Part shown: one piece after another, positions 18,153-38,502 of the stretch
Position numbering within the stretch: position 1 is the stretch's first letter
Layout of the letters: the number at the start of each line of letters is the position of its first letter
Assembly: GCA_965219575.1 (NCBI GenBank)
Contig: OZ244779.1
Coordinates: 1,409,928-1,473,927 of the forward strand
Direction of reading: 5' to 3'
Source of the DNA: Candidatus Oxydemutatoraceae bacterium
GTDB taxonomy: Bacteria > Pseudomonadota > Gammaproteobacteria > Poriferisulfidales > Oxydemutatoraceae
Length of the DNA: 64,000 nucleotides
Program-made: the position numbers and the translations under genes
Notes under the pieces: model-generated
What the model saw: only the letters and a program-made list of their open reading frames with translations
What the model was told of the DNA's origin: nothing
The model's database searches: none

Positions 18153-19076
18153 ATGGCAAAAAAAACTCAATCTAAATACTTAGCACTGACAGAAGACATT
18201 TCCTTCAAGCGATACTTCTCAAGCAGTAAGCAATTACTATTCTCGCTACTTAAGAGCTTCCTGCCGATCTCCGATCGTGCCTCGGGTATGGTGATACTCA
18301 ACCCCGACATACTAGACACCGCATCCGCTACCACCAATCAACCCGGTCAATCGGACGATAAGCTACATCTGCAAGACAGTGCTATCCCACCGGACACACC
18401 GGATGGCAAACAAGTAGTGCTAGACCTCCATGTCGAATTAAATAGCGGTGAGCATGTGGACATAGAGATGCAAAGCCACCCGCATAAAGATTTCTTGTTT
18501 AGAATGTTAGCCTACTGGGTGCGGTTGCATAATCAATCCTTAAAGCGCGGACAGAAGACCAAAGAAAATAAACCGACCTACTCACTAATATTTACCAAGT
18601 TCAGCGTGCTTAGCAAAGCCGAGAGAGACTATATCAAAAAGGCGAACATCAATTTCGAAGGCTATCAGGATAGAGCACTTTACTGGGGGTTTAAGATGTT
18701 TTTCGTGGAATTGAATAGGTTCAATAAGAGCCACCTTGAACTAGTTGATATGGCAGACAGGTGGTGCTATATTATGAAGCATTCGGCGGACTTGACAGCC
18801 GAACAAGTAGCGTATTTATCACAACATGGAGAGACGAAGATGGCATTAGAACATTTAGAGGAAGTATCCAAAGAAAAGAGGGAGTATTGGAAGGCTGCAT
18901 CTCGAGAGAGACGCGAGTGGGAGCATGAGATGAGAAAGCAAGGACTAATAGAAGAAGGCATAGAAAAAGGACATCGAGAAATCGCTTTGAACATGTTGCA
19001 AAAGGGTTTAGAGGTCTCGTTGATTTCCGAAGTCACAGGTTTATCCGTTGCCGAGATTAAACAGCTAAAAAGATAG
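18153..19076 (+). CDS. Rpn-family recombination-promoting nuclease / putative transposase (PD-(D/E)XK, Transposase_31-like) with DUF4351-like C-terminus
   Basis: N-terminal YhgA/Rpn-like core (DLHVELNSGEHVDIEMQSH). The C-terminal tail ...EIALNMLQKGLEVSLISEVTGLSVAEIKQLK is shared with the truncated paralog at 20753. Confidence 0.6.
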   Translation: MAKKTQSKYLALTEDISFKRYFSSSKQLLFSLLKSFLPISDRASGMVILNPDILDTASATTNQPGQSDDKLHLQDSAIPPDTPDGKQVVLDLHVELNSGEHVDIEMQSHPHKDFLFRMLAYWVRLHNQSLKRGQKTKENKPTYSLIFTKFSVLSKAERDYIKKANINFEGYQDRALYWGFKMFFVELNRFNKSHLELVDMADRWCYIMKHSADLTAEQVAYLSQHGETKMALEHLEEVSKEKREYWKAASRERREWEHEMRKQGLIEEGIEKGHREIALNMLQKGLEVSLISEVTGLSVAEIKQLKR

Positions 19077-19162
19077 AACTGAACCACAAGTACGATACTG
19101 GTACATTCCTCTCCCGTAGAGGGGTGTCAGGCATAGCCTGACGGGGTGGTCGCTAAAGAGGG

Positions 19163-19206
19163 CTGTTGAAAAAGTATTTCATAAAATGTAGGGGCGGACT
19201 AGCATG
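19163..19206. repeat. Left part of a family A MITE interrupted by IS110
   Basis: CTGTTGAAAAAGTATTTCATAAAATGTAGGGGCGGACTAGCATG, then the sequence diverges. Confidence 0.75.
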
Positions 19207-20531
19207 ATGCCTTATTAAAAATCAAGTCATTTTATTCATTTTTTATCTCCGTTTTATATTTTTCCTGAGTATCGATTTAGGACGCAGATGCGCAACAATA
19301 ATTCGGGTCAAACGGCTTCCTGTATCTGAGTATCCCGTAAATAATACGTGCCAGCTTATGGGCGCAAGCAACAATAATCTGCTTTTTAGTTAACTCCGGA
19401 CGCCGCCGACTTAATTGGTCGGCAAAGGCACGGATGATTGGGTTATGAACCCGTGCCGAGAGTGCCGCCATAAACAGCAGGGTGCGCAGTTCGGCATCGC
19501 CCATTTTAGAGATATGCGCCTTCGCCTCGTAGTTGCCGGACTGCCGGCGCCTTGGGTTGAGACCGACATAGACTGCGAATTGCTCTGCGTTATCAAATGT
19601 CTTATCATTGAAAACAGCACACAGGGCAATCGCTGTCTGAGTGCCGATGCCGGTAATGGAACACAGCAACTGCTCAAGCTCTGCGAGTTGCTCGTCTTGA
19701 GCGATAATTTGCTCCATTTCGGCATCCTGCTTAGCAATCTGTTTGTCAAAGTATCTCAGGTTCTCAGCTGCTCGTTTTTTTTGCCTTGCATCGCATAAGG
19801 TTTTCATACAATTACTTAACCCGGTATGATCTTTGACTAATTGCCTGCGCACTTTTCGTGCATCTCTCAAGGCGAGTGCAGTCGGCGACGGCATTTGCCA
19901 ATCTTTACCGTCAACAGCGAATGCGAACAGTGCGATGAGCCGCGCATCATCGCGATCGGTTTTATTGTGCATACCAAGCGATTGGCGGAAGCTGGCAACC
20001 TGCGCCGGTTTGACAATCCTAATCGGATGTTGCGCCAGATAGCCGGCTTTGCACAGGGCGAACTCAAAACCGCCGGTGGCTTCAACACAGATGCGACAGT
20101 GCGGTGCGCAGTGTTTGCTAGCCCAAGCTAACAGCTGCTTAATGCCTTTAGCATCATTGCTAAATTGTGCCTCGGCAAAACTATTATCGGTGAATAATAG
20201 AGCGGCCTCTAAAGTGTCTTTAGAGACATCCACGCCGATTATGGCAGGGTGTTTGTTTTCCATAATAATATCCTCCATTATGGTTGTTCAGTGAATAAAA
20301 TACTCGGTAGCCAGTTCAGGAAAGTATGACTACGCCGCCCACACAGGTAAATACGAGATCTAAAGTCTCAAGCTGCCTTCCGAGCTCTATAGTCATAGCG
20401 CCGGAGGAGTGCTTTTCATGCTAACAGGCTTTAATGCCTCGTCCGTCCTGCGGCGTGTCTCCTCCGACTTCCTAGGTACTGCAACTACCTAAGCATTTAT
20501 CTTATATAAATAAGCTAGGGTTTAATATACC
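19207..20531 (-). mobile_element. IS110-family insertion sequence (~1.3 kb) inserted in a MITE palindrome
   Basis: Carries a single DEDD-transposase ORF. The flanks reconstitute an intact family A palindrome (…GGCGGACTAGCATG | IS | TCCGCCCGTAACGCG…). Boundaries are ±3 bp. No terminal inverted repeats, as expected for IS110. Confidence 0.7.
19277..20278 (-). CDS. IS110-family transposase (DEDD)
   Basis: N-terminal IIGVDVSKDTLEAALL (DEDD_Tnp_IS110) and a C-terminal Transposase_20-like domain, in 333 aa. Confidence 0.85.
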   Translation of the reverse strand: MEDIIMENKHPAIIGVDVSKDTLEAALLFTDNSFAEAQFSNDAKGIKQLLAWASKHCAPHCRICVEATGGFEFALCKAGYLAQHPIRIVKPAQVASFRQSLGMHNKTDRDDARLIALFAFAVDGKDWQMPSPTALALRDARKVRRQLVKDHTGLSNCMKTLCDARQKKRAAENLRYFDKQIAKQDAEMEQIIAQDEQLAELEQLLCSITGIGTQTAIALCAVFNDKTFDNAEQFAVYVGLNPRRRQSGNYEAKAHISKMGDAELRTLLFMAALSARVHNPIIRAFADQLSRRRPELTKKQIIVACAHKLARIIYGILRYRKPFDPNYCCASAS

Positions 20532-29224: not shown

Positions 29225-32200
29225 ATGCCGAAACATACCGAATACGCTTTTGAGACTGCGATTGAAACCGCGCTAACCGGTTCCGGTGGCTATGAGAAGC
29301 GTAGCCCCGATGCCTTTGATGAAACACTTGCGCTGTTCCCCGACGATGTTTGCGGTTTTCTCAAAGACAGCCAAGCTACAAAATGGAGATCACTTGAAAT
29401 GTTGCTTGGAGAGAAAACCAATGCAACCGTGTTGGAAGACTTGTCGAAGGAATTGGAACTCAAGGGTACGCTTCACATTCTACGCCACGGCTTCAAGTGC
29501 TACGGCAAAACATTCCGCATGGCTTGGTTCCAACCGAACACTGCTATGAATCCCGAAGCTGCCCAGAACTATGCTCGGAACCGGCTGACCGTTACTCGGC
29601 AAGTTGCTTTTACTTCGGTTCTGGGACATGCGGACGGTAAAAATCGCCGTTGCATTATTGATGTTGCACTTTCCGTTAACGGCATTCCCGTCGTCACTGC
29701 CGAACTTAAGAACCCGCTAACCGGGCAATGCGCCGCTGATGCAAAACACCAATATATGAATGAGCGAAGTGGGAATGATTTGCTCTTTGATTTCAAAAAA
29801 CGAGCACTGGTTCATTTCGCAGTGGATGCGGACGAAGTATGGATGACAACTCGCTTAGAGGGCAAGGAAACCTCTTTCCTACCTTTCAACCGGGGCAATA
29901 ATCATGCAGCAGGCAATCCGCCGGTTGAAGGAAACCACAAGACACATTATCTATGGGATGAGGTACTGCAGGCTGATAGCCTATTAGATATCTTGCAACG
30001 TTTCATGCACCTTGAGGTCAAGGAGAAGTATGTCAGACTCTACGAGGGTATGCAAACCGATAAGAGAGAGACGATGATATTCCCACGCTATCACCAACTT
30101 GATGTGGTTCGGAAACTGGTCGCACATGCAAAGGTTCATGGTGCAGGGCGGAATTATCTAATCCAACATTCGGCTGGTTCGGGTAAATCAAACTCAATTG
30201 CATGGCTTGCACATCGATTGGCTAGCCTGCATGACGAGCATGACGAAAAAGTGTTTCATTCCGTTGTCGTAGTGACCGACCGGCGCGTATTAGATCAACA
30301 GCTACAAGAAACGATATACCAATTTGAACACAAGACCGGCGTAGTGGAGAAGATTGACGAAAACACACAACAACTCGCCCGCGCCTTATCCCACGGTACG
30401 CCTATCGTCATTACCACCATACAGAAATTCCCTTTCATCTCGCGTGCGCTGACAACCCTTGAGAATAAGGGAGACGACATAAAAATCAATACTGCAGGTA
30501 AACGCTTTGCCGTCATCGTTGATGAAGCACACTCATCTCAGAGCGGAGAAACTGCGGCTACTCTTAGAGGTATGTTGAACAAGGAGGGAATCGAGGCTGC
30601 CATTGCCGCCCAACTTTCCGAAGAGGAAGATAGCGACCTCTCCGATGATGCAAAGGCAGCGATACTACGCGATGCACTGAAGCGGAGACGCCAGCCTAAT
30701 ATCAGTTTTTTTGCTTTTACAGCCACACCCAAATTTAAGACCAAAGCCTTGTTTGACGAACCCGGTCCGTCCGGTGCATCTCCGTTTCACGAGTACACCA
30801 TGCGGCAAGCCATTGAGGAAGGTTTCATCATGGATGTGCTTCAAAACTATACCACCTATAAACGTTTCTTTGGTCTAATCAAACAGATTGAGAGTGATCC
30901 CGATGTGCCTCGCAGAGAGGCTGCAAAGGCTCTCATGCGCTATCAAGAGCTTCATCCTGTCAATATAGAGCAACTCATCTCGGTGATTGTTGAGCATTTT
31001 TGGCTTAAAGTGAAAAACGAGATCGGCGGACGCGCAAAGGCTATGGTAGTCACAAACTCTCGCCTCGCTGCCGTAAAATACAAACTTGCCTTTGATCGCT
31101 ATATTCAAGACCGAGAATATCCCGGCATTCATTCTCTGGTAGCTTTCTCAGGCACGGTTTCGGATCCGGACATTCCCGGATCGTCGTATACCGAAGTAGC
31201 AATGAACGGTGGCATTGCTGAAACCGAGTTGCCGGATGCCTTCGCAGGAAACGATTATCAAGTTCTTTTAGTTGCAGAAAAGTATCAGACCGGATTTGAT
31301 CAACCCTTATTGCAGACAATGTATGTGGTTAAGAAGTTGGCAGGTGTCCAAGCGGTTCAGACTCTCTCAAGGCTCAACCGCGTCACACCCGGTAAATCGC
31401 GTATCTTCGTTCTGGATTTCGCTAACGAAGAAGAAGACATCTACGAAGCATTCAAACCTTATTATGAGACGACACCTATCGGAAAGAATGCCGAACCGCA
31501 TCGACTTTCCGAACTGCAGCATCGTCTGCTTGGATGGGCTATATTCACGCAAGCCGATGTATATGCATTCGCCGAAGTTTGGTATCGTGGTAAGAACCAT
31601 TCGGTTAGCGATCATCCTCAAATAAACGCTATTCTTGATGCTGTTGTCCAACGCTTCAAGAGTCGCAAGGAAGAAGAACAAGAACAGTTTTTTGGACAGT
31701 TGACGGCTTATAGAGGTCTCTACGCTTTCCTATCACAAATCATCCCTTATGCCGATACCGATCTTGAGCAGCTTTACACCTTCGTGAGAAATCTCTTGAT
31801 GAAACTGCCGCCGATTGATGGCAAAGCCTTTGCTCTAGATGACAAAGTTGCATTGCAATACTTTCGAATGCAGCAAATATCCGAGAATTCTATTAAGCTG
31901 GCAGAGGGTGTGGCGGAACCCTTGAAAGGACCGACCGATGTCGGCACCGGTCGCACTAAAGATCAAGAGGTGACACTTTCAAGTTTGATCGACCGCCTCA
32001 ATGAACGTTTTGGCACGAACTTTACTATGGCAGATCAGTTGTTCTTCGATCAGATACAGACTTCGGCAGAGAACAACCAGAATATTGTTGAAGCAGTGCA
32101 TGCTAATAATTTTGCAGACTTTGTTTCGTATCTAGACACCGCTCTAAACGATCTATTTATTAAGAGAAGGGAGGGTAACGAAGAGATATTTTCTAAGATT

Positions 32201-32287
32201 ATGTCGGACTCCGAATTCCGTTCAATCGTACATAAACATCTTGCGCAAGAGATTTTTAATCGGGTTCGCGAAAAACAATCCTCCTGA
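29225..32287 (+). CDS. hsdR: Type I restriction enzyme R subunit
   Basis: HsdR_N nuclease region, SF2 helicase motifs (QHSAGSGKSN, VVVTDRRVLDQQ, DEAH-like IVDEAHSSQ) and a C-terminal domain, in 1020 aa. Confidence 0.9.
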   Translation: MPKHTEYAFETAIETALTGSGGYEKRSPDAFDETLALFPDDVCGFLKDSQATKWRSLEMLLGEKTNATVLEDLSKELELKGTLHILRHGFKCYGKTFRMAWFQPNTAMNPEAAQNYARNRLTVTRQVAFTSVLGHADGKNRRCIIDVALSVNGIPVVTAELKNPLTGQCAADAKHQYMNERSGNDLLFDFKKRALVHFAVDADEVWMTTRLEGKETSFLPFNRGNNHAAGNPPVEGNHKTHYLWDEVLQADSLLDILQRFMHLEVKEKYVRLYEGMQTDKRETMIFPRYHQLDVVRKLVAHAKVHGAGRNYLIQHSAGSGKSNSIAWLAHRLASLHDEHDEKVFHSVVVVTDRRVLDQQLQETIYQFEHKTGVVEKIDENTQQLARALSHGTPIVITTIQKFPFISRALTTLENKGDDIKINTAGKRFAVIVDEAHSSQSGETAATLRGMLNKEGIEAAIAAQLSEEEDSDLSDDAKAAILRDALKRRRQPNISFFAFTATPKFKTKALFDEPGPSGASPFHEYTMRQAIEEGFIMDVLQNYTTYKRFFGLIKQIESDPDVPRREAAKALMRYQELHPVNIEQLISVIVEHFWLKVKNEIGGRAKAMVVTNSRLAAVKYKLAFDRYIQDREYPGIHSLVAFSGTVSDPDIPGSSYTEVAMNGGIAETELPDAFAGNDYQVLLVAEKYQTGFDQPLLQTMYVVKKLAGVQAVQTLSRLNRVTPGKSRIFVLDFANEEEDIYEAFKPYYETTPIGKNAEPHRLSELQHRLLGWAIFTQADVYAFAEVWYRGKNHSVSDHPQINAILDAVVQRFKSRKEEEQEQFFGQLTAYRGLYAFLSQIIPYADTDLEQLYTFVRNLLMKLPPIDGKAFALDDKVALQYFRMQQISENSIKLAEGVAEPLKGPTDVGTGRTKDQEVTLSSLIDRLNERFGTNFTMADQLFFDQIQTSAENNQNIVEAVHANNFADFVSYLDTALNDLFIKRREGNEEIFSKIMSDSEFRSIVHKHLAQEIFNRVREKQSS

Positions 32288-32508: not shown

Positions 32509-33378
32509 TTGATGTTGAAAAATAAAATTGAATCTATGAAATCTGATTGGCACAAAAAATATAAGTCATGGATTCTACGGAAAACAAAATTTAAATCTAT
32601 AAAGCGTTGGTGGTGCGAAAATATCAAACCCTATACACTACTAGAATTGACTCTAAAATATCGAAAAATTTCTCTGGTTTTGGCAGGTACTTTTGGAATA
32701 GTGTTAGCGTGCTATGTGTATCAGTTTTTTTCCAATCAAGTTGATATCAATAAGACTGCCTTGCATGGTAGTTTAACTATTTTAGCCTTAGGCTTGCCTA
32801 CCTTTTTTATACTTTGGTTATTTAGAACCCATGATGTTCAAGAAAATATAAATAATAGCACCTTTTTTGAATGTGCGAGAATGCTGACAGAAAAATATCC
32901 AGAAAAGAACATAGAAGAGAAATTTCCAATACTAGCTGATGAAACAGGTATTCCTCCTCATATATTGGAAAAATCTTTACCAACAAAAATAGCACTTGAG
33001 CAACTCGCATATCTCAGAAGAGAAACTGGTTTTGACAAAGAAAGAATAGAACTCGTTACTCAGCAACTTAAATTGGGTAAAATGTATTTAGTAGGTGCTC
33101 GCTTAAGCGGTTTGAATTTAACTAGAGCCGTTTTATATGATACCCGGTTAAGTTTTGCCGATTTGAGTTATGCTAATTTGACTAGCTCTCTTTTGGATAA
33201 AGCTGATCTAGGAGGTGCTAAACTAATGGGGGCTAATCTGACAAATACGGATACTAGAGAAACCATATTGAGTGGTGCTAAGTATGATAAAAACACTACT
33301 TTCAACTCTTGGCTTGATACCGAAGAAAAGCGTATTAAAGCAGGCATGGTTCCTTATGAACCCGAAGAACAAAAATAG
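32509..33378 (+). CDS. Membrane-anchored pentapeptide-repeat protein
   Basis: N-terminal TM helices, then pentapeptide repeats (ARLSGLNLTRAVLYDTRLSFADLSYANLTSSLLDKADLGGAKLMGANL). Confidence 0.65.
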   Translation: MMLKNKIESMKSDWHKKYKSWILRKTKFKSIKRWWCENIKPYTLLELTLKYRKISLVLAGTFGIVLACYVYQFFSNQVDINKTALHGSLTILALGLPTFFILWLFRTHDVQENINNSTFFECARMLTEKYPEKNIEEKFPILADETGIPPHILEKSLPTKIALEQLAYLRRETGFDKERIELVTQQLKLGKMYLVGARLSGLNLTRAVLYDTRLSFADLSYANLTSSLLDKADLGGAKLMGANLTNTDTRETILSGAKYDKNTTFNSWLDTEEKRIKAGMVPYEPEEQK

Positions 33379-33478
33379 AAATTTTGCCTGCTAATTTATA
33401 TAATGCTCATTATTCAATTTGAAAAAGAGTATAATTTTGCCTCCTAAAAAACCAATGACCGTATCAGCGAAAGCCTAA

Positions 33479-33673
33479 ATGATTAAAGCAAGATTCCAAA
33501 ACATAGGTCCGATTAAAGATGCCGAATTAGAGCTAGGAGATCTAACCATTATTGCCGGGCAAAATAATACCGGCAAAACCTATTTGGTTTATACACTTTA
33601 TAGCCCTTGGGATTTTCAGAAAGACAATTTACTTAACCTTTTGTATAGGCCTGAAGACCACTCTGAAAAATAA
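33479..33673 (+). pseudogene. N-terminal fragment (64 aa) of an AAA/ABC-type defence ATPase (Walker A only)
   Basis: IGPIKDAELELGDLTIIAGQNNTGKTYL is the N-terminus typical of AAA_15/AAA_21-type ATPases (OLD, GajA or PtuA-like). The ORF stops after 64 aa, and its stop overlaps the next start (TAATG). Confidence 0.5.
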
Positions 33674-34590
33674 TGAATTTTCCCAGAACTTTGTATTACC
33701 GCAGGCGTGTGCTACTGGCAATTCTGGCTCGCGGGAAAGGTCGCACGGAGAAAATCCGCCTGCAAAAGTTACTCTTTCTATTTACCCAACATCAAGAGAA
33801 GCCGATTTATCATTTCTTACCGTATAAGTACGGGTGTTATTCATTTCAAGCTAACGAAGATGCTCGGATACTCGCCGATTATTATCGGTTGTTGGCAATA
33901 ACGAAAAACGACAAAGCATACATTGTAAATAGTAAGAAAATTAAAGGGATGATCAACTTGAAACCTGAGGATGAAGAGTGTCTAGACGCTATATTTGATG
34001 CGTATGGAAAACTTTCCAATGATGCCCTTATCTACGAGGTATATAGAAAGTATCCGTACTACGCAATCAATAGCGAGCTTCTGGACAAACCGAAATTTAA
34101 ACCGTTGCGCCGTTATATATCTAAAGAAAAACCACAGATCAAAAATAAACATTTAACGCTTTACACCATAGGTTACGAAGGAAAAAGCATAGAACAATAT
34201 CTGAGAGGTTTAATCGATAACGGCATCTCTGCACTGATAGATGTGAGGTATAATCCTTTCAGCATGAAAAAAGGCTTTTCCAAAAAACAACTACAAGATA
34301 TAACCGGCAGGTTCGGAATAGCTTATATCCATATCCCGGAATTAGGCATTAAGGGAAATTTGCGAAAGAATATAAAACCTCGCACCGAATATAATCAACT
34401 GTTCAATCAATACCGAAAAACCTTAAGCCAAACCGATAAAGAGCAAGCATTGCAGGATGTAGTGAAAATCATTCGGCAACACCGAAGAGTTGCTATCACT
34501 TGCTTTGAGCAAGATCACACATGCTGTCACCGCAATCATGTGGCAGAGGCAATAGCCGACAAACACAAAATAATCATTCGGCACTTGTAA
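33673..34590 (+). CDS. Panacea (DUF4065)-like N-terminal domain fused to a DUF488 C-terminal domain
   Basis: N-terminal half: KIRLQKLLFLFTQ...PIYHFLPYKYGCYSF resembles the Panacea/SocA-like antitoxin domain. C-terminal half: LYTIGYEGKSIEQYLRGLIDNGISALIDVRYNPFSMKKGF...IAYIHIPELGI...ITCFEQDHTCCHRNHVAEAI is the DUF488 (YeaO-like) signature. Confidence 0.55.
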   Translation: MNFPRTLYYRRRVLLAILARGKGRTEKIRLQKLLFLFTQHQEKPIYHFLPYKYGCYSFQANEDARILADYYRLLAITKNDKAYIVNSKKIKGMINLKPEDEECLDAIFDAYGKLSNDALIYEVYRKYPYYAINSELLDKPKFKPLRRYISKEKPQIKNKHLTLYTIGYEGKSIEQYLRGLIDNGISALIDVRYNPFSMKKGFSKKQLQDITGRFGIAYIHIPELGIKGNLRKNIKPRTEYNQLFNQYRKTLSQTDKEQALQDVVKIIRQHRRVAITCFEQDHTCCHRNHVAEAIADKHKIIIRHL

Positions 34591-34595
34591 GATAT

Positions 34596-35085
34596 GAGGT
34601 TTTTGAAAAAGTATGGGGTGTTGAAAAAATGAGGCTGCTGAAAAAGTATTTCATACAATGTAGGGGCGGACTTGCATGTCCGCCCGTAACGCGTTGGCCG
34701 GCACGATTTATACATTCATTCAACCGATTTATGGAAACCAAAACCAAATGGCGTAAGCGGTTGAGTTTGTACAGAACGGTACTTAAGGGCAGACACACAG
34801 GTCTGCCCCTACGACTTTGTGGTTATCATAATTATGTGGCGCAAGCGGTTGGATTTATGCAGTGCCAATACTTTTTCAACAGTCACACGATACAACCAGC
34901 CCATGGAAAGGCTTTACATTTTGTACTATGTACTAAGATTTCGCACAATGTTACGCCGATTGACCTACCGGCTCAATCGGCGGCTCTATTCTGCCCCTAC
35001 GGCTCGGCGGTTTGCGTAAATCCACGGCACAGGCGGTTCTGTTCGTGCAAAACATTATTTTTCTAACAGCTCCAACATTGATACA
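34596..35085. repeat. Repeat block: family A MITE (degenerate left end) plus a family C repeat
   Basis: …GTAGGGGCGGACTTGCATGTCCGCCCGTAACGCG… then GCACAATGTTACGCCGATTGACCTACCGGCTCAATCGGCGG (family C). Fills the gap to dnaQ. Confidence 0.75.
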
Positions 35086-35097
35086 CAGGATGCGCTA

Positions 35098-35781
35098 ATG
35101 AGACAGATTGCATTGGATACCGAGACGACCGGGCTTGAGGTCAGGGATGGGCATCGGATTTTGGAGATAGGGTGTGTTGAGATTATAGACCGCGGTATCA
35201 GCGAGCGGACTTTTTATTCTAAGGTGAATCCCAAGCGTGAGGTGAGCGAAGGTGCGCGACGGGTGCACGGTTATACTTGGGAGATGCTCAAGGGGAGTCC
35301 GCTGTTTGGCAGTGTATGCGACGAGTTTTTGAAATTCGCTCAGGGTAGCGAGGTGCTGATACATAATGCGCCGTTTGATTTGGGTTTTCTGGATGCCGAG
35401 TTGGCGCGTCTAAATCGTGGCACTTTTATACAGGAGACGGGTTGCACCATCATTGACACAGTGGAACTTGCTAAGAAAGTGCATGTCGGTTCGTCTTATT
35501 CTTTGAATGCGCTTAGCGATCACTATCAGATTGATAGAAGTCATCGCGAGTTGCACGGTGCGTTGATAGATGCGGATTTATTGGCGCAGGTTTATTTAGC
35601 TATGACGAGCGGGCAGACGAGTATATCCTTCGCCGGTGAACCGCAAGTTGATAGGCATGAAGTTGTTGCCGCCGACGAGAAAGAGGAGGTTTTGTCCGAC
35701 AAGGGCTTGATAGTGATTAAGGCAACCGAGGACGAATTGAATCGCCACGAACAGTTTTTAGCGGCAAAGTTTGCGAAATAG
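35098..35781 (+). CDS. dnaQ: DNA polymerase III epsilon subunit (3'-5' exonuclease)
   Basis: Exo I motif IALDTETTGL, Exo II LIHNAPFDLGFL and Exo III HGALIDADLLAQVY. Confidence 0.88.
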   Translation: MRQIALDTETTGLEVRDGHRILEIGCVEIIDRGISERTFYSKVNPKREVSEGARRVHGYTWEMLKGSPLFGSVCDEFLKFAQGSEVLIHNAPFDLGFLDAELARLNRGTFIQETGCTIIDTVELAKKVHVGSSYSLNALSDHYQIDRSHRELHGALIDADLLAQVYLAMTSGQTSISFAGEPQVDRHEVVAADEKEEVLSDKGLIVIKATEDELNRHEQFLAAKFAK

Positions 35782-35783
35782 TC

Positions 35784-36290
35784 GTAGGAGGGGAATGGGC
35801 AGCACCATGTTTGTGTTGAAAAAATATTGTTCCGCAAAACCGTAACTGCTTCGCGCCATTAAGTTTACGATAACCACCGAGTCGTAGGGGCAGACCTGTG
35901 TGTCTGCCCAAAACGATACCGCTCTGTACAAACTCAACCGCTTGCGCCATTTGGTTTTGGTTTCCATAAATCGGGTGAATGAATGTATAAATCGTGCATG
36001 CGCAACGCGTTACGGGCGGACATGCTAGTCCGCCCCTACGGCGGTTTGTAAATATTCACGGCGCAAGCGGTTGCAGTTGTGCAAAAACAGTGCTTTTCAA
36101 CTTACGGGCGGACATGCTAGTCCGCCCCTACGGCGGTTTGTAAATATTCACGGCGCAAGCGGTTGCAGTTGTGCAAAAACAGTGCTTTTTCAACAGCCCC
36201 ACGCCAAGCCTCTACATTTCGTAGCTTACATCGTGGTTCAGCACAATGTTACGCCACTTGCCCAACTGGAGCAAGTGGCGGTTCCATTAT
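35784..36290. repeat. Repeat block: family B fragment, a family A MITE with an internal ~88-bp tandem duplication, and a family C remnant
   Basis: TTACGGGCGGACATGCTAGTCCGCCCCTACGGCGGTTTGTAAATATTCACGGCGCAAGCGGTTGCAGTTGTGCAAAAACAGTGCTTTT occurs twice in tandem (about 36030-36200). Confidence 0.75.
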
Positions 36291-38269: not shown

Positions 38270-38297
38270 TGGTTTTGTTCGTGCAGAGCAGTTGGGG

Positions 38298-38502
38298 CTG
38301 TTGAAAAAGTGCGGCATCGTACGAATCCAATCACTTGCGCCATTTGGTTTTGGTTTCCATAAATTGGATGGATGAAATGTATAAATCGTGTAGGCACAAC
38401 GCGTTACGGGCGGACATGTTAGTCCGCCCCTACGGGTGGTTTGCAAATATTCACAGCGCAAGCGGTTACGATTGCGCCGAGACGATACTTTTTCAACAGC
38501 CC
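38298..38502. repeat. MITE-like element, family A
   Basis: CTGTTGAAAAAGTGCGG...GGGCGGACATGTTAGTCCGCCCCTACGGGTGGTTTG...ACTTTTTCAACAGCC. Confidence 0.8.

What the first reader, a model, noticed from the sequence alone, without database searches (positions are those of the whole stretch)
33479..34590. Panacea (DUF4065)-like domain fused to DUF488, translationally coupled to a 64-aa ATPase remnant
Seen in sequence: a 305-aa ORF whose N-terminal ~150 aa carry the Panacea/SocA-like pattern (KIRLQKLLFLFTQ…PIYHFLPYKYGCYSF). Its C-terminal ~150 aa carry a clear DUF488 signature (…IDVRYNPFS…HIPELG…CFEQDHTCCHRNHVAEAI). Its ATG overlaps the stop of a 64-aa ORF (TAATG). That short ORF is the N-terminus (Walker A GQNNTGKTYL) of an OLD/Gabija/Septu-type defence ATPase that has been cut off. 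Established knowledge: Panacea is a promiscuous antitoxin domain found with many unrelated toxins, and DUF488 (E. coli YeaO family) has no assigned function. Inference: a covalent Panacea-DUF488 fusion in a defence island suggests DUF488 is a toxin or effector domain under Panacea control, or that this is a single-chain TA or defence module. The ATPase stump suggests a former multi-gene defence system was replaced at this site.
Basis: partly seen in the sequence, partly recalled or inferred. Interest (0 to 1): 0.65.

Follow-up and report, generated by a model that had tools for sequence, protein, structure and literature searches.

The report
Orphaned half of a two-gene defence candidate
The 305-residue gene is an intact member of a catalogued but untested two-gene phage-defence candidate (PADLOC PDC-M19) that has lost its usual partner gene, and it sits directly behind the 64-codon stump of a deleted defence ATPase; this is a decaying defence island, not a new single-chain toxin-antitoxin.

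Summary
The sequence facts hold. A 64-codon ORF (33479-33673) and a 305-codon ORF (33673-34590) overlap in TAATG.

- **C-terminal half.** It is a clear DUF488 domain (Pfam E 3.5e-27).
- **N-terminal half.** It is only remotely Panacea-like. It falls below Pfam's cut-off (18.3 vs 25.7 bits), but its best solved-structure match is the DarG C-terminal antitoxin domain, which a 2026 paper states is homologous to DUF4065/Panacea.
- **64-codon ORF.** It is the true N-terminus (80% identity over all 64 residues) of a 465-residue PD-T4-4_A-type ATPase that is intact in a syntenic relative. About 1.8 kb has been deleted, and the TAATG coupling is a by-product of that deletion.

The interpretation does not hold. 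The fusion is PADLOC family PDC-M19A (E 3e-98). In 65 of 76 species genomes with room downstream, a full-length conserved partner, M19B, lies directly downstream. M19B has a predicted OB-fold and usually a clamp-binding-like C-terminal tail.

M19B is absent from this window. Yet the orphan M19A keeps every invariant residue and evolves under purifying selection (dN/dS 0.11-0.19). DUF488-only derivatives with intact motifs also exist.

Most likely M19A is the antitoxin-like, DarG-style half (binding domain plus enzyme) and M19B the effector. Interest is moderate to low.

The parts
33376..33404 (+). Promoter-like site (TAGAAA-17-TATAAT) upstream of the ATPase stump. It would now also drive the 305-aa gene.
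   Evidence: 10 of 12 matches. The number of such sites in the region is no higher than in shuffles, so this is only a candidate.
33479..33673 (+). 64-codon remnant: N-terminus, including Walker A GQNNTGKT, of a PD-T4-4_A / PDC-M47A-type ABC ATPase (AAA_15/AAA_21).
   Evidence: 80% identity over residues 1-64 of the 465-aa ATPase of L002. PADLOC PD-T4-4_A E 4.6e-16. No other fragment of the ATPase in the window.
33662..33672 (.). Deletion junction. About 1.8 kb is missing here: the rest of the ATPase, the ~189-aa partner gene and the spacer before M19A. Only a few bases of possible microhomology are present.
   Evidence: window 33340-33672 aligns to L002 5870-6179, and window 33672-34593 aligns to L002 8000-8921. 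The pattern is the same against L001 and L003.
33673..34590 (+). Intact PDC-M19A gene (305 aa), orphaned: no M19B follows it.
   Evidence: PDC-M19A E 2.9e-98, residues 7-300. (homologues). (no M19B hit in the window). (dN/dS 0.11-0.19). (all invariant residues present).
33673..34137 (+). N-terminal domain (residues 1-155): helical with a small three-stranded sheet. Panacea / DarG-C-terminal-domain-like.
   Evidence: PADLOC DarG hit.
34189..34551 (+). DUF488 domain (Pfam residues 173-293), 'active' N3a subclade. Invariant motifs: GYEG, DVR, S-x-K-x-GF, CFE, CHR.
34660..34831 (.). REP-like palindromic repeat block filling the position where M19B lies in relatives.
   Evidence: 81-nt arms, 96% complementary to 35917-35997; copies elsewhere in the window and in relatives.

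Best explanation
The 305-aa gene is an orphaned copy of PDC-M19A, which is normally the first gene of a self-contained, mobile two-gene cassette (M19A-M19B).

M19A has two parts:
- a divergent Panacea / DarG-C-terminal-type partner-binding domain;
- a DUF488 enzyme-like domain.

This is the DarG design (binding domain plus enzyme) in reverse order. I infer that M19A is the neutralising, antitoxin-like half. I infer that M19B is the effector and acts on single-stranded DNA or replication forks. M19B has a predicted OB-fold and, in most homologues, a C-terminal Qxx[LM]xF clamp-binding-like tail.

In this lineage the island is decaying. M19B has been lost. A ~1.8-kb deletion removed an upstream, unrelated PD-T4-4-like ATPase system down to a 64-codon stump. 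That deletion fused the stump's stop codon to M19A's ATG. M19A is therefore probably now transcribed from the ATPase promoter and translated by re-initiation.

The orphan is still under purifying selection. It probably still does something on its own, through DUF488 activity or as immunity against incoming M19B-type effectors.

Shown: family identity, domain content, pairing statistics, the deletion, and selection. Inferred: who is toxin and who is antitoxin, the DNA target, and the mode of expression.
For: Identity: PADLOC PDC-M19A E 2.9e-98.

Partner:
- L002 carries M19B (PDC-M19B E 1.8e-100) starting 1 bp after the M19A stop.
- Of 76 species genomes with at least 900 bp of room, 65 have a full-length M19B within a few bases, 9 have a short or displaced M19B ORF, and 2 have none.
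- Flanking genes are otherwise not conserved. The next most common neighbour family occurs in 8 of 79 loci and is an R-M methylase.
- Reverse survey: all 76 metagenome loci with room upstream of M19B have M19A there, and none has M19B alone.
- The asymmetry, 11/76 versus 3/69, gives Fisher p = 0.05.

The orphan looks functional:
- dN/dS is 0.19 between the window and L001, which share the first 41 bp after the stop and both lack M19B. It is 0.11-0.13 against L002 and L003.
- All 32 invariant columns of 111 homologues are kept.

N-domain evidence.

M19B fold: model pLDDT 87.7. The best PDB matches are OB-fold ssDNA binders (TEBP alpha, Teb1, RecO, Rim1) at E >= 1.4e-3. The Qxx[LM]xF tail is present in 92 of 120 homologues.

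Deletion. The ATPase is next to M19A only in the Ca. Porisulfidus loci.
Against: - No experiment exists for any PDC-M19 gene. PDC systems are explicitly untested candidates.
- The Panacea link is sub-threshold by sequence. The Foldseek E-value (9.6e-3) is modest.
- The OB-fold matches for M19B are weak (E > 1e-3). The Porisulfidus-type M19B lacks the clamp-like tail.
- The loss asymmetry is borderline. It rests on simple ORF calling in MAGs, where frameshifts are common.
- The DarG C-terminal domain and Panacea bind toxins, but the same fold could bind a non-toxic partner.
- An M19B copy elsewhere in this genome cannot be excluded from a 64-kb window.
- The deletion could in principle be an assembly error.
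Confidence: 0.5

Rival explanations
1. DUF488 is a toxin or effector domain kept silent in cis by the Panacea-like domain, so the 305-aa protein is a single-chain TA or stand-alone defence module.
For: - The N-domain is of an antitoxin type.
- The DUF488 belongs to the subclade that Pfam labels 'active'.
- The gene persists alone under purifying selection in three related loci.
- The setting is a defence island.
Against: - A conserved partner gene follows M19A in 65 of 76 genomes and is never seen without it.
- DUF488-only derivatives that lost the N-domain keep GYEG, DVR, CFE and CHR (P0074 and P0075, 62-64% identical).
- Stand-alone DUF488 proteins such as E. coli YeaO are common and have no antitoxin (established knowledge).
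Confidence: 0.15
2. M19A is the effector or sensor of a two-gene defence system and M19B is an accessory DNA-binding subunit. The orphan copy here is a non-functional leftover that has not yet decayed.
For: - The island is visibly decaying: ATPase stump, split ATPase in L001, truncated partner gene in L003.
- The N-half shows relatively more amino-acid changes than the C-half between the window and L001: 13 non-synonymous to 7 synonymous, against 9 to 18, p = 0.04.
Against: - The ORF is intact in all four related loci.
- Overall dN/dS is 0.11-0.19, and 0.11 for the DUF488 half.
- All invariant residues are retained.
Confidence: 0.2
3. M19A-M19B is not an immune or TA module. It is a DNA-repair or replication accessory pair: a clamp-tethered OB-fold protein plus a DUF488 enzyme.
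For: - OB-fold-like model and clamp-binding-like tail of M19B.
- DUF488 is fused to ParB-CTPase and HTH domains in archaea and lies next to RadC, UvrD and YpsA genes on plasmids.
Against: - There is no conserved synteny beyond the pair.
- The recurrent neighbours are restriction-modification genes.
- Presence is patchy even within one genus.
- PADLOC derived the family from genes embedded in R-M, BREX or DISARM systems.
Confidence: 0.1
4. The 64-aa stump and TAATG junction are an assembly artefact: a collapse between paralogous ATPase copies in a metagenome assembly.
For: Relatives carry two or three paralogous ATPase genes with similar 5' ends. The relatives come from metagenome assemblies.
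Against: The right-hand breakpoint lies in unique sequence, the M19A start, not in a paralogous repeat. The junction shows at most a few bases of microhomology. Other relatives show independent, different decay states.
Confidence: 0.05

Closest known systems
PADLOC PDC-M19 (phage defence candidate, Payne et al., bioRxiv 10.1101/2024.01.29.577857)
   Same: The 305-aa protein matches the PDC-M19A model end to end (E 2.9e-98). Relatives carry the matching PDC-M19B. As in the PADLOC work, the system lies next to or inside R-M loci.
   Different: The M19B gene is missing here, so the system as PADLOC defines it is incomplete. PDC-M19 itself has never been tested.
DarG antitoxin of DarTG (PDB 7YK3)
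   Same: Two-module design: a helical toxin-binding domain of the DUF4065/Panacea type plus an enzyme domain. The DarG chain is the best solved-structure match, and the QKL.YF...F.P..YG.YS motif is shared.
   Different: Domain order is reversed. The enzyme is DUF488, not a macrodomain. The partner M19B is OB-fold-like, not a DarT ADP-ribosyltransferase.
PanA / SocA (Panacea, PF13274) antitoxins
   Same: Described fold of helices around a central helix plus a small three-stranded sheet. Antitoxin-first two-gene loci with tiny intergenic gaps. Recurrent sub-threshold PF13274 hits. SocA's toxin SocB acts through the beta clamp, and M19B carries a clamp-binding-like tail.
   Different: It does not reach Pfam's gathering score. 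It is fixed to one partner family rather than promiscuous. It is covalently joined to DUF488.
PD-T4-4 (Vassallo et al. 2022) / PDC-M47 ATPase systems
   Same: The 64-aa ORF is the N-terminus of a PD-T4-4_A-type ATPase. In relatives the intact gene is followed by a small partner gene.
   Different: Only 64 of about 465 codons remain, and the adjacent partner gene is gone. A distant PD-T4-4_B-like gene sits separately between hsdS and hsdR.

Membership tests
Pfam PF04343 DUF488 (and PF22751 DUF488-N3a) | Score above the curated gathering threshold | tested here: met
   95.9 bits against 22.2; 39.6 bits against 27. All 111 homologues also match.
Pfam PF13274 SocA_Panacea (DUF4065) | Score above the curated gathering threshold (25.7 bits) | tested here: not met
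   18.3 bits, E 0.0046, partial coverage. Of 111 homologues, 24 give hits at E <= 0.1; the best E is 2.7e-4.
Panacea / DarG C-terminal domain superfamily (fold level) | Structural similarity to a solved member and a shared N-terminal motif | tested here: met
   7yk3_D is the top PDB match (probability 1.00, E 9.6e-3, TM 0.52 on the target). Motif alignment to 7yk3_B. PADLOC DarG model E 0.0017. The significance is modest.
PanAT-type toxin-antitoxin pair | Conserved adjacent partner gene within 100 nt, in two or more species | tested here: inconclusive
   Met for the family: 65 of 76 genomes, with gaps of a few bases. Not met in this window, where no M19B is found.
PanAT-type toxin-antitoxin pair | Partner is toxic and is neutralised by the Panacea protein | not testable with these tools
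   Needs expression assays.
PADLOC PDC-M19 | M19A gene present | tested here: met
   E 2.9e-98, residues 7-300 on model positions 1-287 of 294.
PADLOC PDC-M19 | M19B gene present in the same locus | tested here: not met
   No hit with an M19B profile or by tblastn anywhere in the 64-kb window.
PD-T4-4 / PDC-M47 | Full-length ABC ATPase (Walker A, Walker B, signature motif) with an adjacent B gene | tested here: not met
   Only residues 1-64 remain, with no adjacent B gene. Relatives have 464-465 aa.
DarTG | Macrodomain in the antitoxin and a DarT partner | tested here: not met
   No Macro domain hit. The enzyme half is DUF488. The partner family has no Pfam, NCBIfam or PDB sequence match.

The most novel reading that the evidence does not exclude
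PDC-M19 is a DarTG/SocAB-like module aimed at replication. M19B is an OB-fold, clamp-tethered effector that acts on single-stranded DNA. M19A neutralises it twice over: by binding through a Panacea-like domain, and by a DUF488 enzyme activity that undoes or prevents its effect. That would give DUF488 its first functional context. The orphan M19A kept in this genome would then serve as stand-alone immunity (anti-addiction) against incoming M19B-bearing elements.
Probability: 0.25. Interest if true: 0.65.

Novelty: new member of a known kind. Interest (0 to 1): 0.35.

Why it matters
For this window the result is mostly a correction. What looked like a novel single-chain toxin-antitoxin is an incomplete copy of a catalogued candidate system, next to a deleted ATPase system.

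The family has wider value. The work here attaches three testable features to an untested PADLOC candidate:
- a DarG/Panacea-like binding domain on M19A;
- a conserved, probably catalytic DUF488 domain, for which the held literature assigns no function and the PDB has no sequence match;
- an OB-fold partner with a clamp-binding-like tail.

A simple toxicity and neutralisation experiment on the pair could give DUF488 its first assigned role. The related loci also show, step by step, how a defence island erodes: intact, then split ATPase, then truncated partner, then stump.

Tried and rejected
- **BFVD search of the M19A model.** It gave only weak hits, several of them DUF488 phage proteins and none named Panacea. 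It was uninformative for the N-domain.
- **PDB by sequence.** No DUF488 structure and no M19B relative was found.
- **Literature.** Searches for DUF488, PF04343/COG5483/COG3189, DUF488-N3 and PDC-M19 found no functional study. Two Aravind-lab eLife papers that I suspected as the source of the 'N3a' name do not mention DUF488.
- **Panacea sequences.** I looked for them in the supplement of PMC8832971, to build a profile-profile test, and found none. A motif scan of 83 loci found no bona fide PanA gene to use as a reference.
- **ATPase as a conserved third component of M19.** Rejected. It is next to M19A only in the four Ca. Porisulfidus loci.
- **Split Panacea + DUF488 gene pairs.** The DUF488-only relatives P0074 and P0075 follow a copB gene, not an N-domain gene. 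Many short N-domain-only proteins in the representative library could be contig-end fragments and were not resolved.
- **The 64-aa ORF as part of a longer frameshifted gene.** Rejected by tblastn.

Full report
**1. What is in the sequence**

Two same-strand ORFs exist exactly as described: 33479..33673 (64 aa) and 33673..34590 (305 aa). The stop TAA of the first shares one base with the ATG of the second.

They lie at the end of a run of defence genes:
- TcmP plus DUF5131 (a complete PADLOC PDC-M30 pair, 23094-24880, minus strand);
- a type I R-M operon: hsdM 25138-27318, hsdS 27315-28628, an embedded 198-aa gene, hsdR 29225-32287;
- a pentapeptide-repeat membrane protein (32509-33378).

Downstream come REP-like repeats, a DnaQ-like exonuclease (35098-35781) and housekeeping genes. 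The closest relatives are MAGs named Candidatus Porisulfidus.

**2. The 305-aa protein**

*C-terminal half.* Pfam gives a strong DUF488 match on residues 173-293 (E 3.5e-27). It also matches the DUF488-N3a 'active' subclade.

*N-terminal half.* It reaches only 18.3 bits on SocA_Panacea (cut-off 25.7) and covers residues 79-125, so it is not a Pfam-level Panacea member. The similarity is nevertheless not noise:
- Of 111 homologues scanned one by one, 24 give sub-threshold Panacea hits (best E 2.7e-4). No other family recurs on the N-half in more than 4.
- An AlphaFold2 model built on 29 homologues is confident (pLDDT 91.6, pTM 0.88).
- The N-domain has about six main helices and three short strands. 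Kurata et al. describe the same make-up for Panacea.
- The best Foldseek match of the model in the PDB is the DarG chain 7yk3_D of the M. tuberculosis DarTG complex (probability 1.00, E 9.6e-3).
- The PADLOC DarG model hits residues 9-85 (E 0.0017).
- A family profile aligns its most conserved motif to DarG residues 31-69.
- A 2026 paper states that DUF4065 proteins are homologous to the DarG C-terminal inhibitor domain (PMC13621843).

I therefore accept 'Panacea/DarG-CTD-like' at the fold and remote-homology level, not as family membership.

**3. The fusion is a known, widespread family with a fixed partner**

PADLOC recognises the whole protein as PDC-M19A (E 2.9e-98). PDC systems are 145 untested candidates that Payne et al. 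derived from genes embedded in R-M, BREX and DISARM loci.

The protein search found thousands of relatives, mostly about 294 aa and mostly from Bacteroidota. A scan of one genome per species found at least 575.

In the syntenic relative L002, M19A is followed after 1 bp by a 267-aa gene that matches PDC-M19B (E 1.8e-100).

Survey from the M19A side (80 species genomes):
- 76 have at least 900 bp of sequence downstream;
- 65 of these carry a full-length M19B within a few bases;
- 9 carry a short or displaced M19B ORF;
- 2 carry none.

No other neighbour is conserved. The next most frequent neighbour families occur in 8 or fewer of 79 loci and are restriction-modification proteins. This is the signature of a self-contained mobile two-gene cassette.

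Survey from the M19B side (80 metagenome loci): every locus with room upstream has M19A there. That is 66 full-length, 6 cut by the contig end and 4 irregular. None has M19B alone.

**4. The partner protein**

M19B has no Pfam, NCBIfam or PDB sequence match. It is highly conserved (59% mean column identity).

Its model (pLDDT 87.7) is beta-rich. Its best, though weak, PDB matches are OB-fold single-strand DNA binders: telomere end-binding protein alpha, Teb1, RecO and Rim1, all at E >= 1.4e-3.

Of 120 homologues, 92 end in Qxx[LM]xF. I read this as resembling the bacterial beta-clamp-binding motif; that reading is inference from established knowledge of the motif. The Porisulfidus-type M19B lacks this tail.

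**5. What this window has and lacks**

No M19B is detectable anywhere in the 64 kb. REP-like palindromic repeats occupy the position where it would lie. Two other Porisulfidus relatives (L001, L003) also lack it, whereas L002 has it.

The orphan gene is not decaying:
- It retains all 32 columns that are invariant among 111 homologues.
- dN/dS is 0.11-0.19 in all pairwise comparisons. This includes window against L001 (0.19), two M19B-less copies that share the first 41 bp after the stop.
- In that pair the N-half carries relatively more replacements than the DUF488 half: 13 non-synonymous to 7 synonymous, against 9 to 18, p = 0.04. This could reflect relaxed constraint on a binding domain that has lost its partner, but the numbers are small.

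**6. The 64-aa ORF**

It matches PD-T4-4_A (E 4.6e-16) and PDC-M47A. It aligns over its full length, at 80% identity, to residues 1-64 of the 465-aa AAA_15/AAA_21 ATPase that occupies the same position in L002.

In L002 the order is hsdM, hsdS, hsdR, pentapeptide protein, ATPase (465 aa), 189-aa gene, M19A, M19B, a second ATPase, dnaQ.

DNA alignment shows window 33340-33672 matching L002 5870-6179, and window 33672-34593 matching L002 8000-8921. About 1.8 kb is therefore missing. The junction lies within 33662-33672 and has at most a few bases of microhomology. No other ATPase fragment exists in any frame.

The TAATG overlap is thus created by the deletion. The spacer that precedes M19A in relatives is gone, so M19A is probably expressed from the ATPase promoter by re-initiation. 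A promoter-like site lies at 33376-33404; this expression route is inference.

The ATPase is not part of the M19 system. Among 83 loci it lies next to M19A only in the Porisulfidus clade.

The clade shows graded decay of the ATPase system:
- intact in L002;
- small partner gene cut to 95 aa in L003;
- ATPase split into 406 + 58 aa in L001;
- a 64-aa stump here.

**7. Mechanism**

The design of M19A parallels DarG: a toxin-binding Panacea-type domain plus an enzyme domain that reverses the toxin's chemistry. Four observations point the same way:
- the antitoxin-first gene order;
- the tight coupling of the two genes;
- M19B never being found without M19A;
- M19A surviving without M19B.

The loss asymmetry is 11 of 76 against 3 of 69 (Fisher p = 0.05).

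Together these make M19A the likely neutralising half and M19B the likely effector, perhaps acting at replication forks. This is inference, and I put it at about 0.5.

- the obligatory partner gene;
- two DUF488-only derivatives (P0074, P0075) that have lost the N-domain but keep the GYEG, DVR, CFE and CHR motifs;
- the many stand-alone DUF488 proteins that have no antitoxin (established knowledge).

It is not excluded.

**8. DUF488 itself**

The held literature assigns it no function, and no PDB chain matches it by sequence. It is reported fused to ParB-CTPase and HTH domains in archaea, and next to RadC, UvrD and YpsA genes on archaeal plasmids.

The model shows a small alpha/beta sandwich. 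The invariant residues are D190, R192, S197, K199, R231, C277, E279, C285, H286 and R287. This basic, Cys/His-containing set would suit a hydrolase or transferase acting on a phosphate-bearing substrate. That is only an inference.

**9. Verdict**

- The ATPase-remnant reading is right, although it is a deletion and not a replacement.
- The headline inference of a single-chain TA with DUF488 as toxin is not supported.
- The locus is a new, degenerate member of a catalogued candidate family. Interest for this window is moderate to low.
- The family-level hypothesis is worth a bench test: a DarG-like Panacea-DUF488 antitoxin paired with an OB-fold, clamp-tailed effector.

Noticed in passing
window 28625-29221 (+): The 198-aa ORF wedged between hsdS and hsdR has no Pfam or NCBIfam hit. 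It matches PADLOC PD-T4-4_B (E 1.3e-7) and PDC-M47B. It is an orphan partner-type gene of the same kind of system whose ATPase survives only as the 64-aa stump 4 kb away. It is absent from the syntenic L002.
   Followed up: partly
window 23094-24880 (-): Overlapping TcmP (TIGR04474, 348 aa) and DUF5131 (251 aa) genes form a complete PADLOC PDC-M30 A+B candidate system.
   Followed up: partly
window 34660-34831, 35865-36200, 38294-38500: A family of REP-like palindromic repeats (GGGGCGGAC...GTCCGCCCC, plus about 80-nt flanking modules). They lie in inverted orientation on both sides of the dnaQ-like gene, include a perfect 88-nt tandem pair at 36010/36102, and also occur in the relatives. They may drive the local rearrangements.
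   Followed up: partly
M19B homologues P0121-P0240; loci L005-L083: 92 of 120 M19B proteins end in Qxx[LM]xF, which resembles a beta-clamp-binding motif. The Porisulfidus-type copies have lost it.
   Followed up: partly
L003 2709-7640; L001 6024-7417: L003 carries three tandem PD-T4-4_A-like ATPase paralogues. The L001 copy is split into 406 + 58 aa, and the small partner in L003 is cut to 95 aa. This system is decaying in steps across the clade.
   Followed up: partly
P0351 (680 aa): A protein with the M19A N-domain (residues 2-134) followed by about 520 residues with no Pfam hit. This may be the same binding domain on a different C-terminal module.
   Followed up: no
window 32509-33378 (+): A membrane protein with pentapeptide repeats lies directly after hsdR. 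It is conserved at the same position in L002, and its function is unknown.
   Followed up: no
window 18153-20278: A PDDEXK_2 transposase-like gene and an IS110-family transposase lie at the upstream edge of the island.
   Followed up: no
L164 5001-5522: A DUF488-only derivative of M19A (173 aa, 64% identical to the C-half, all motifs intact) lies directly after a copB gene in a related organism.
   Followed up: partly
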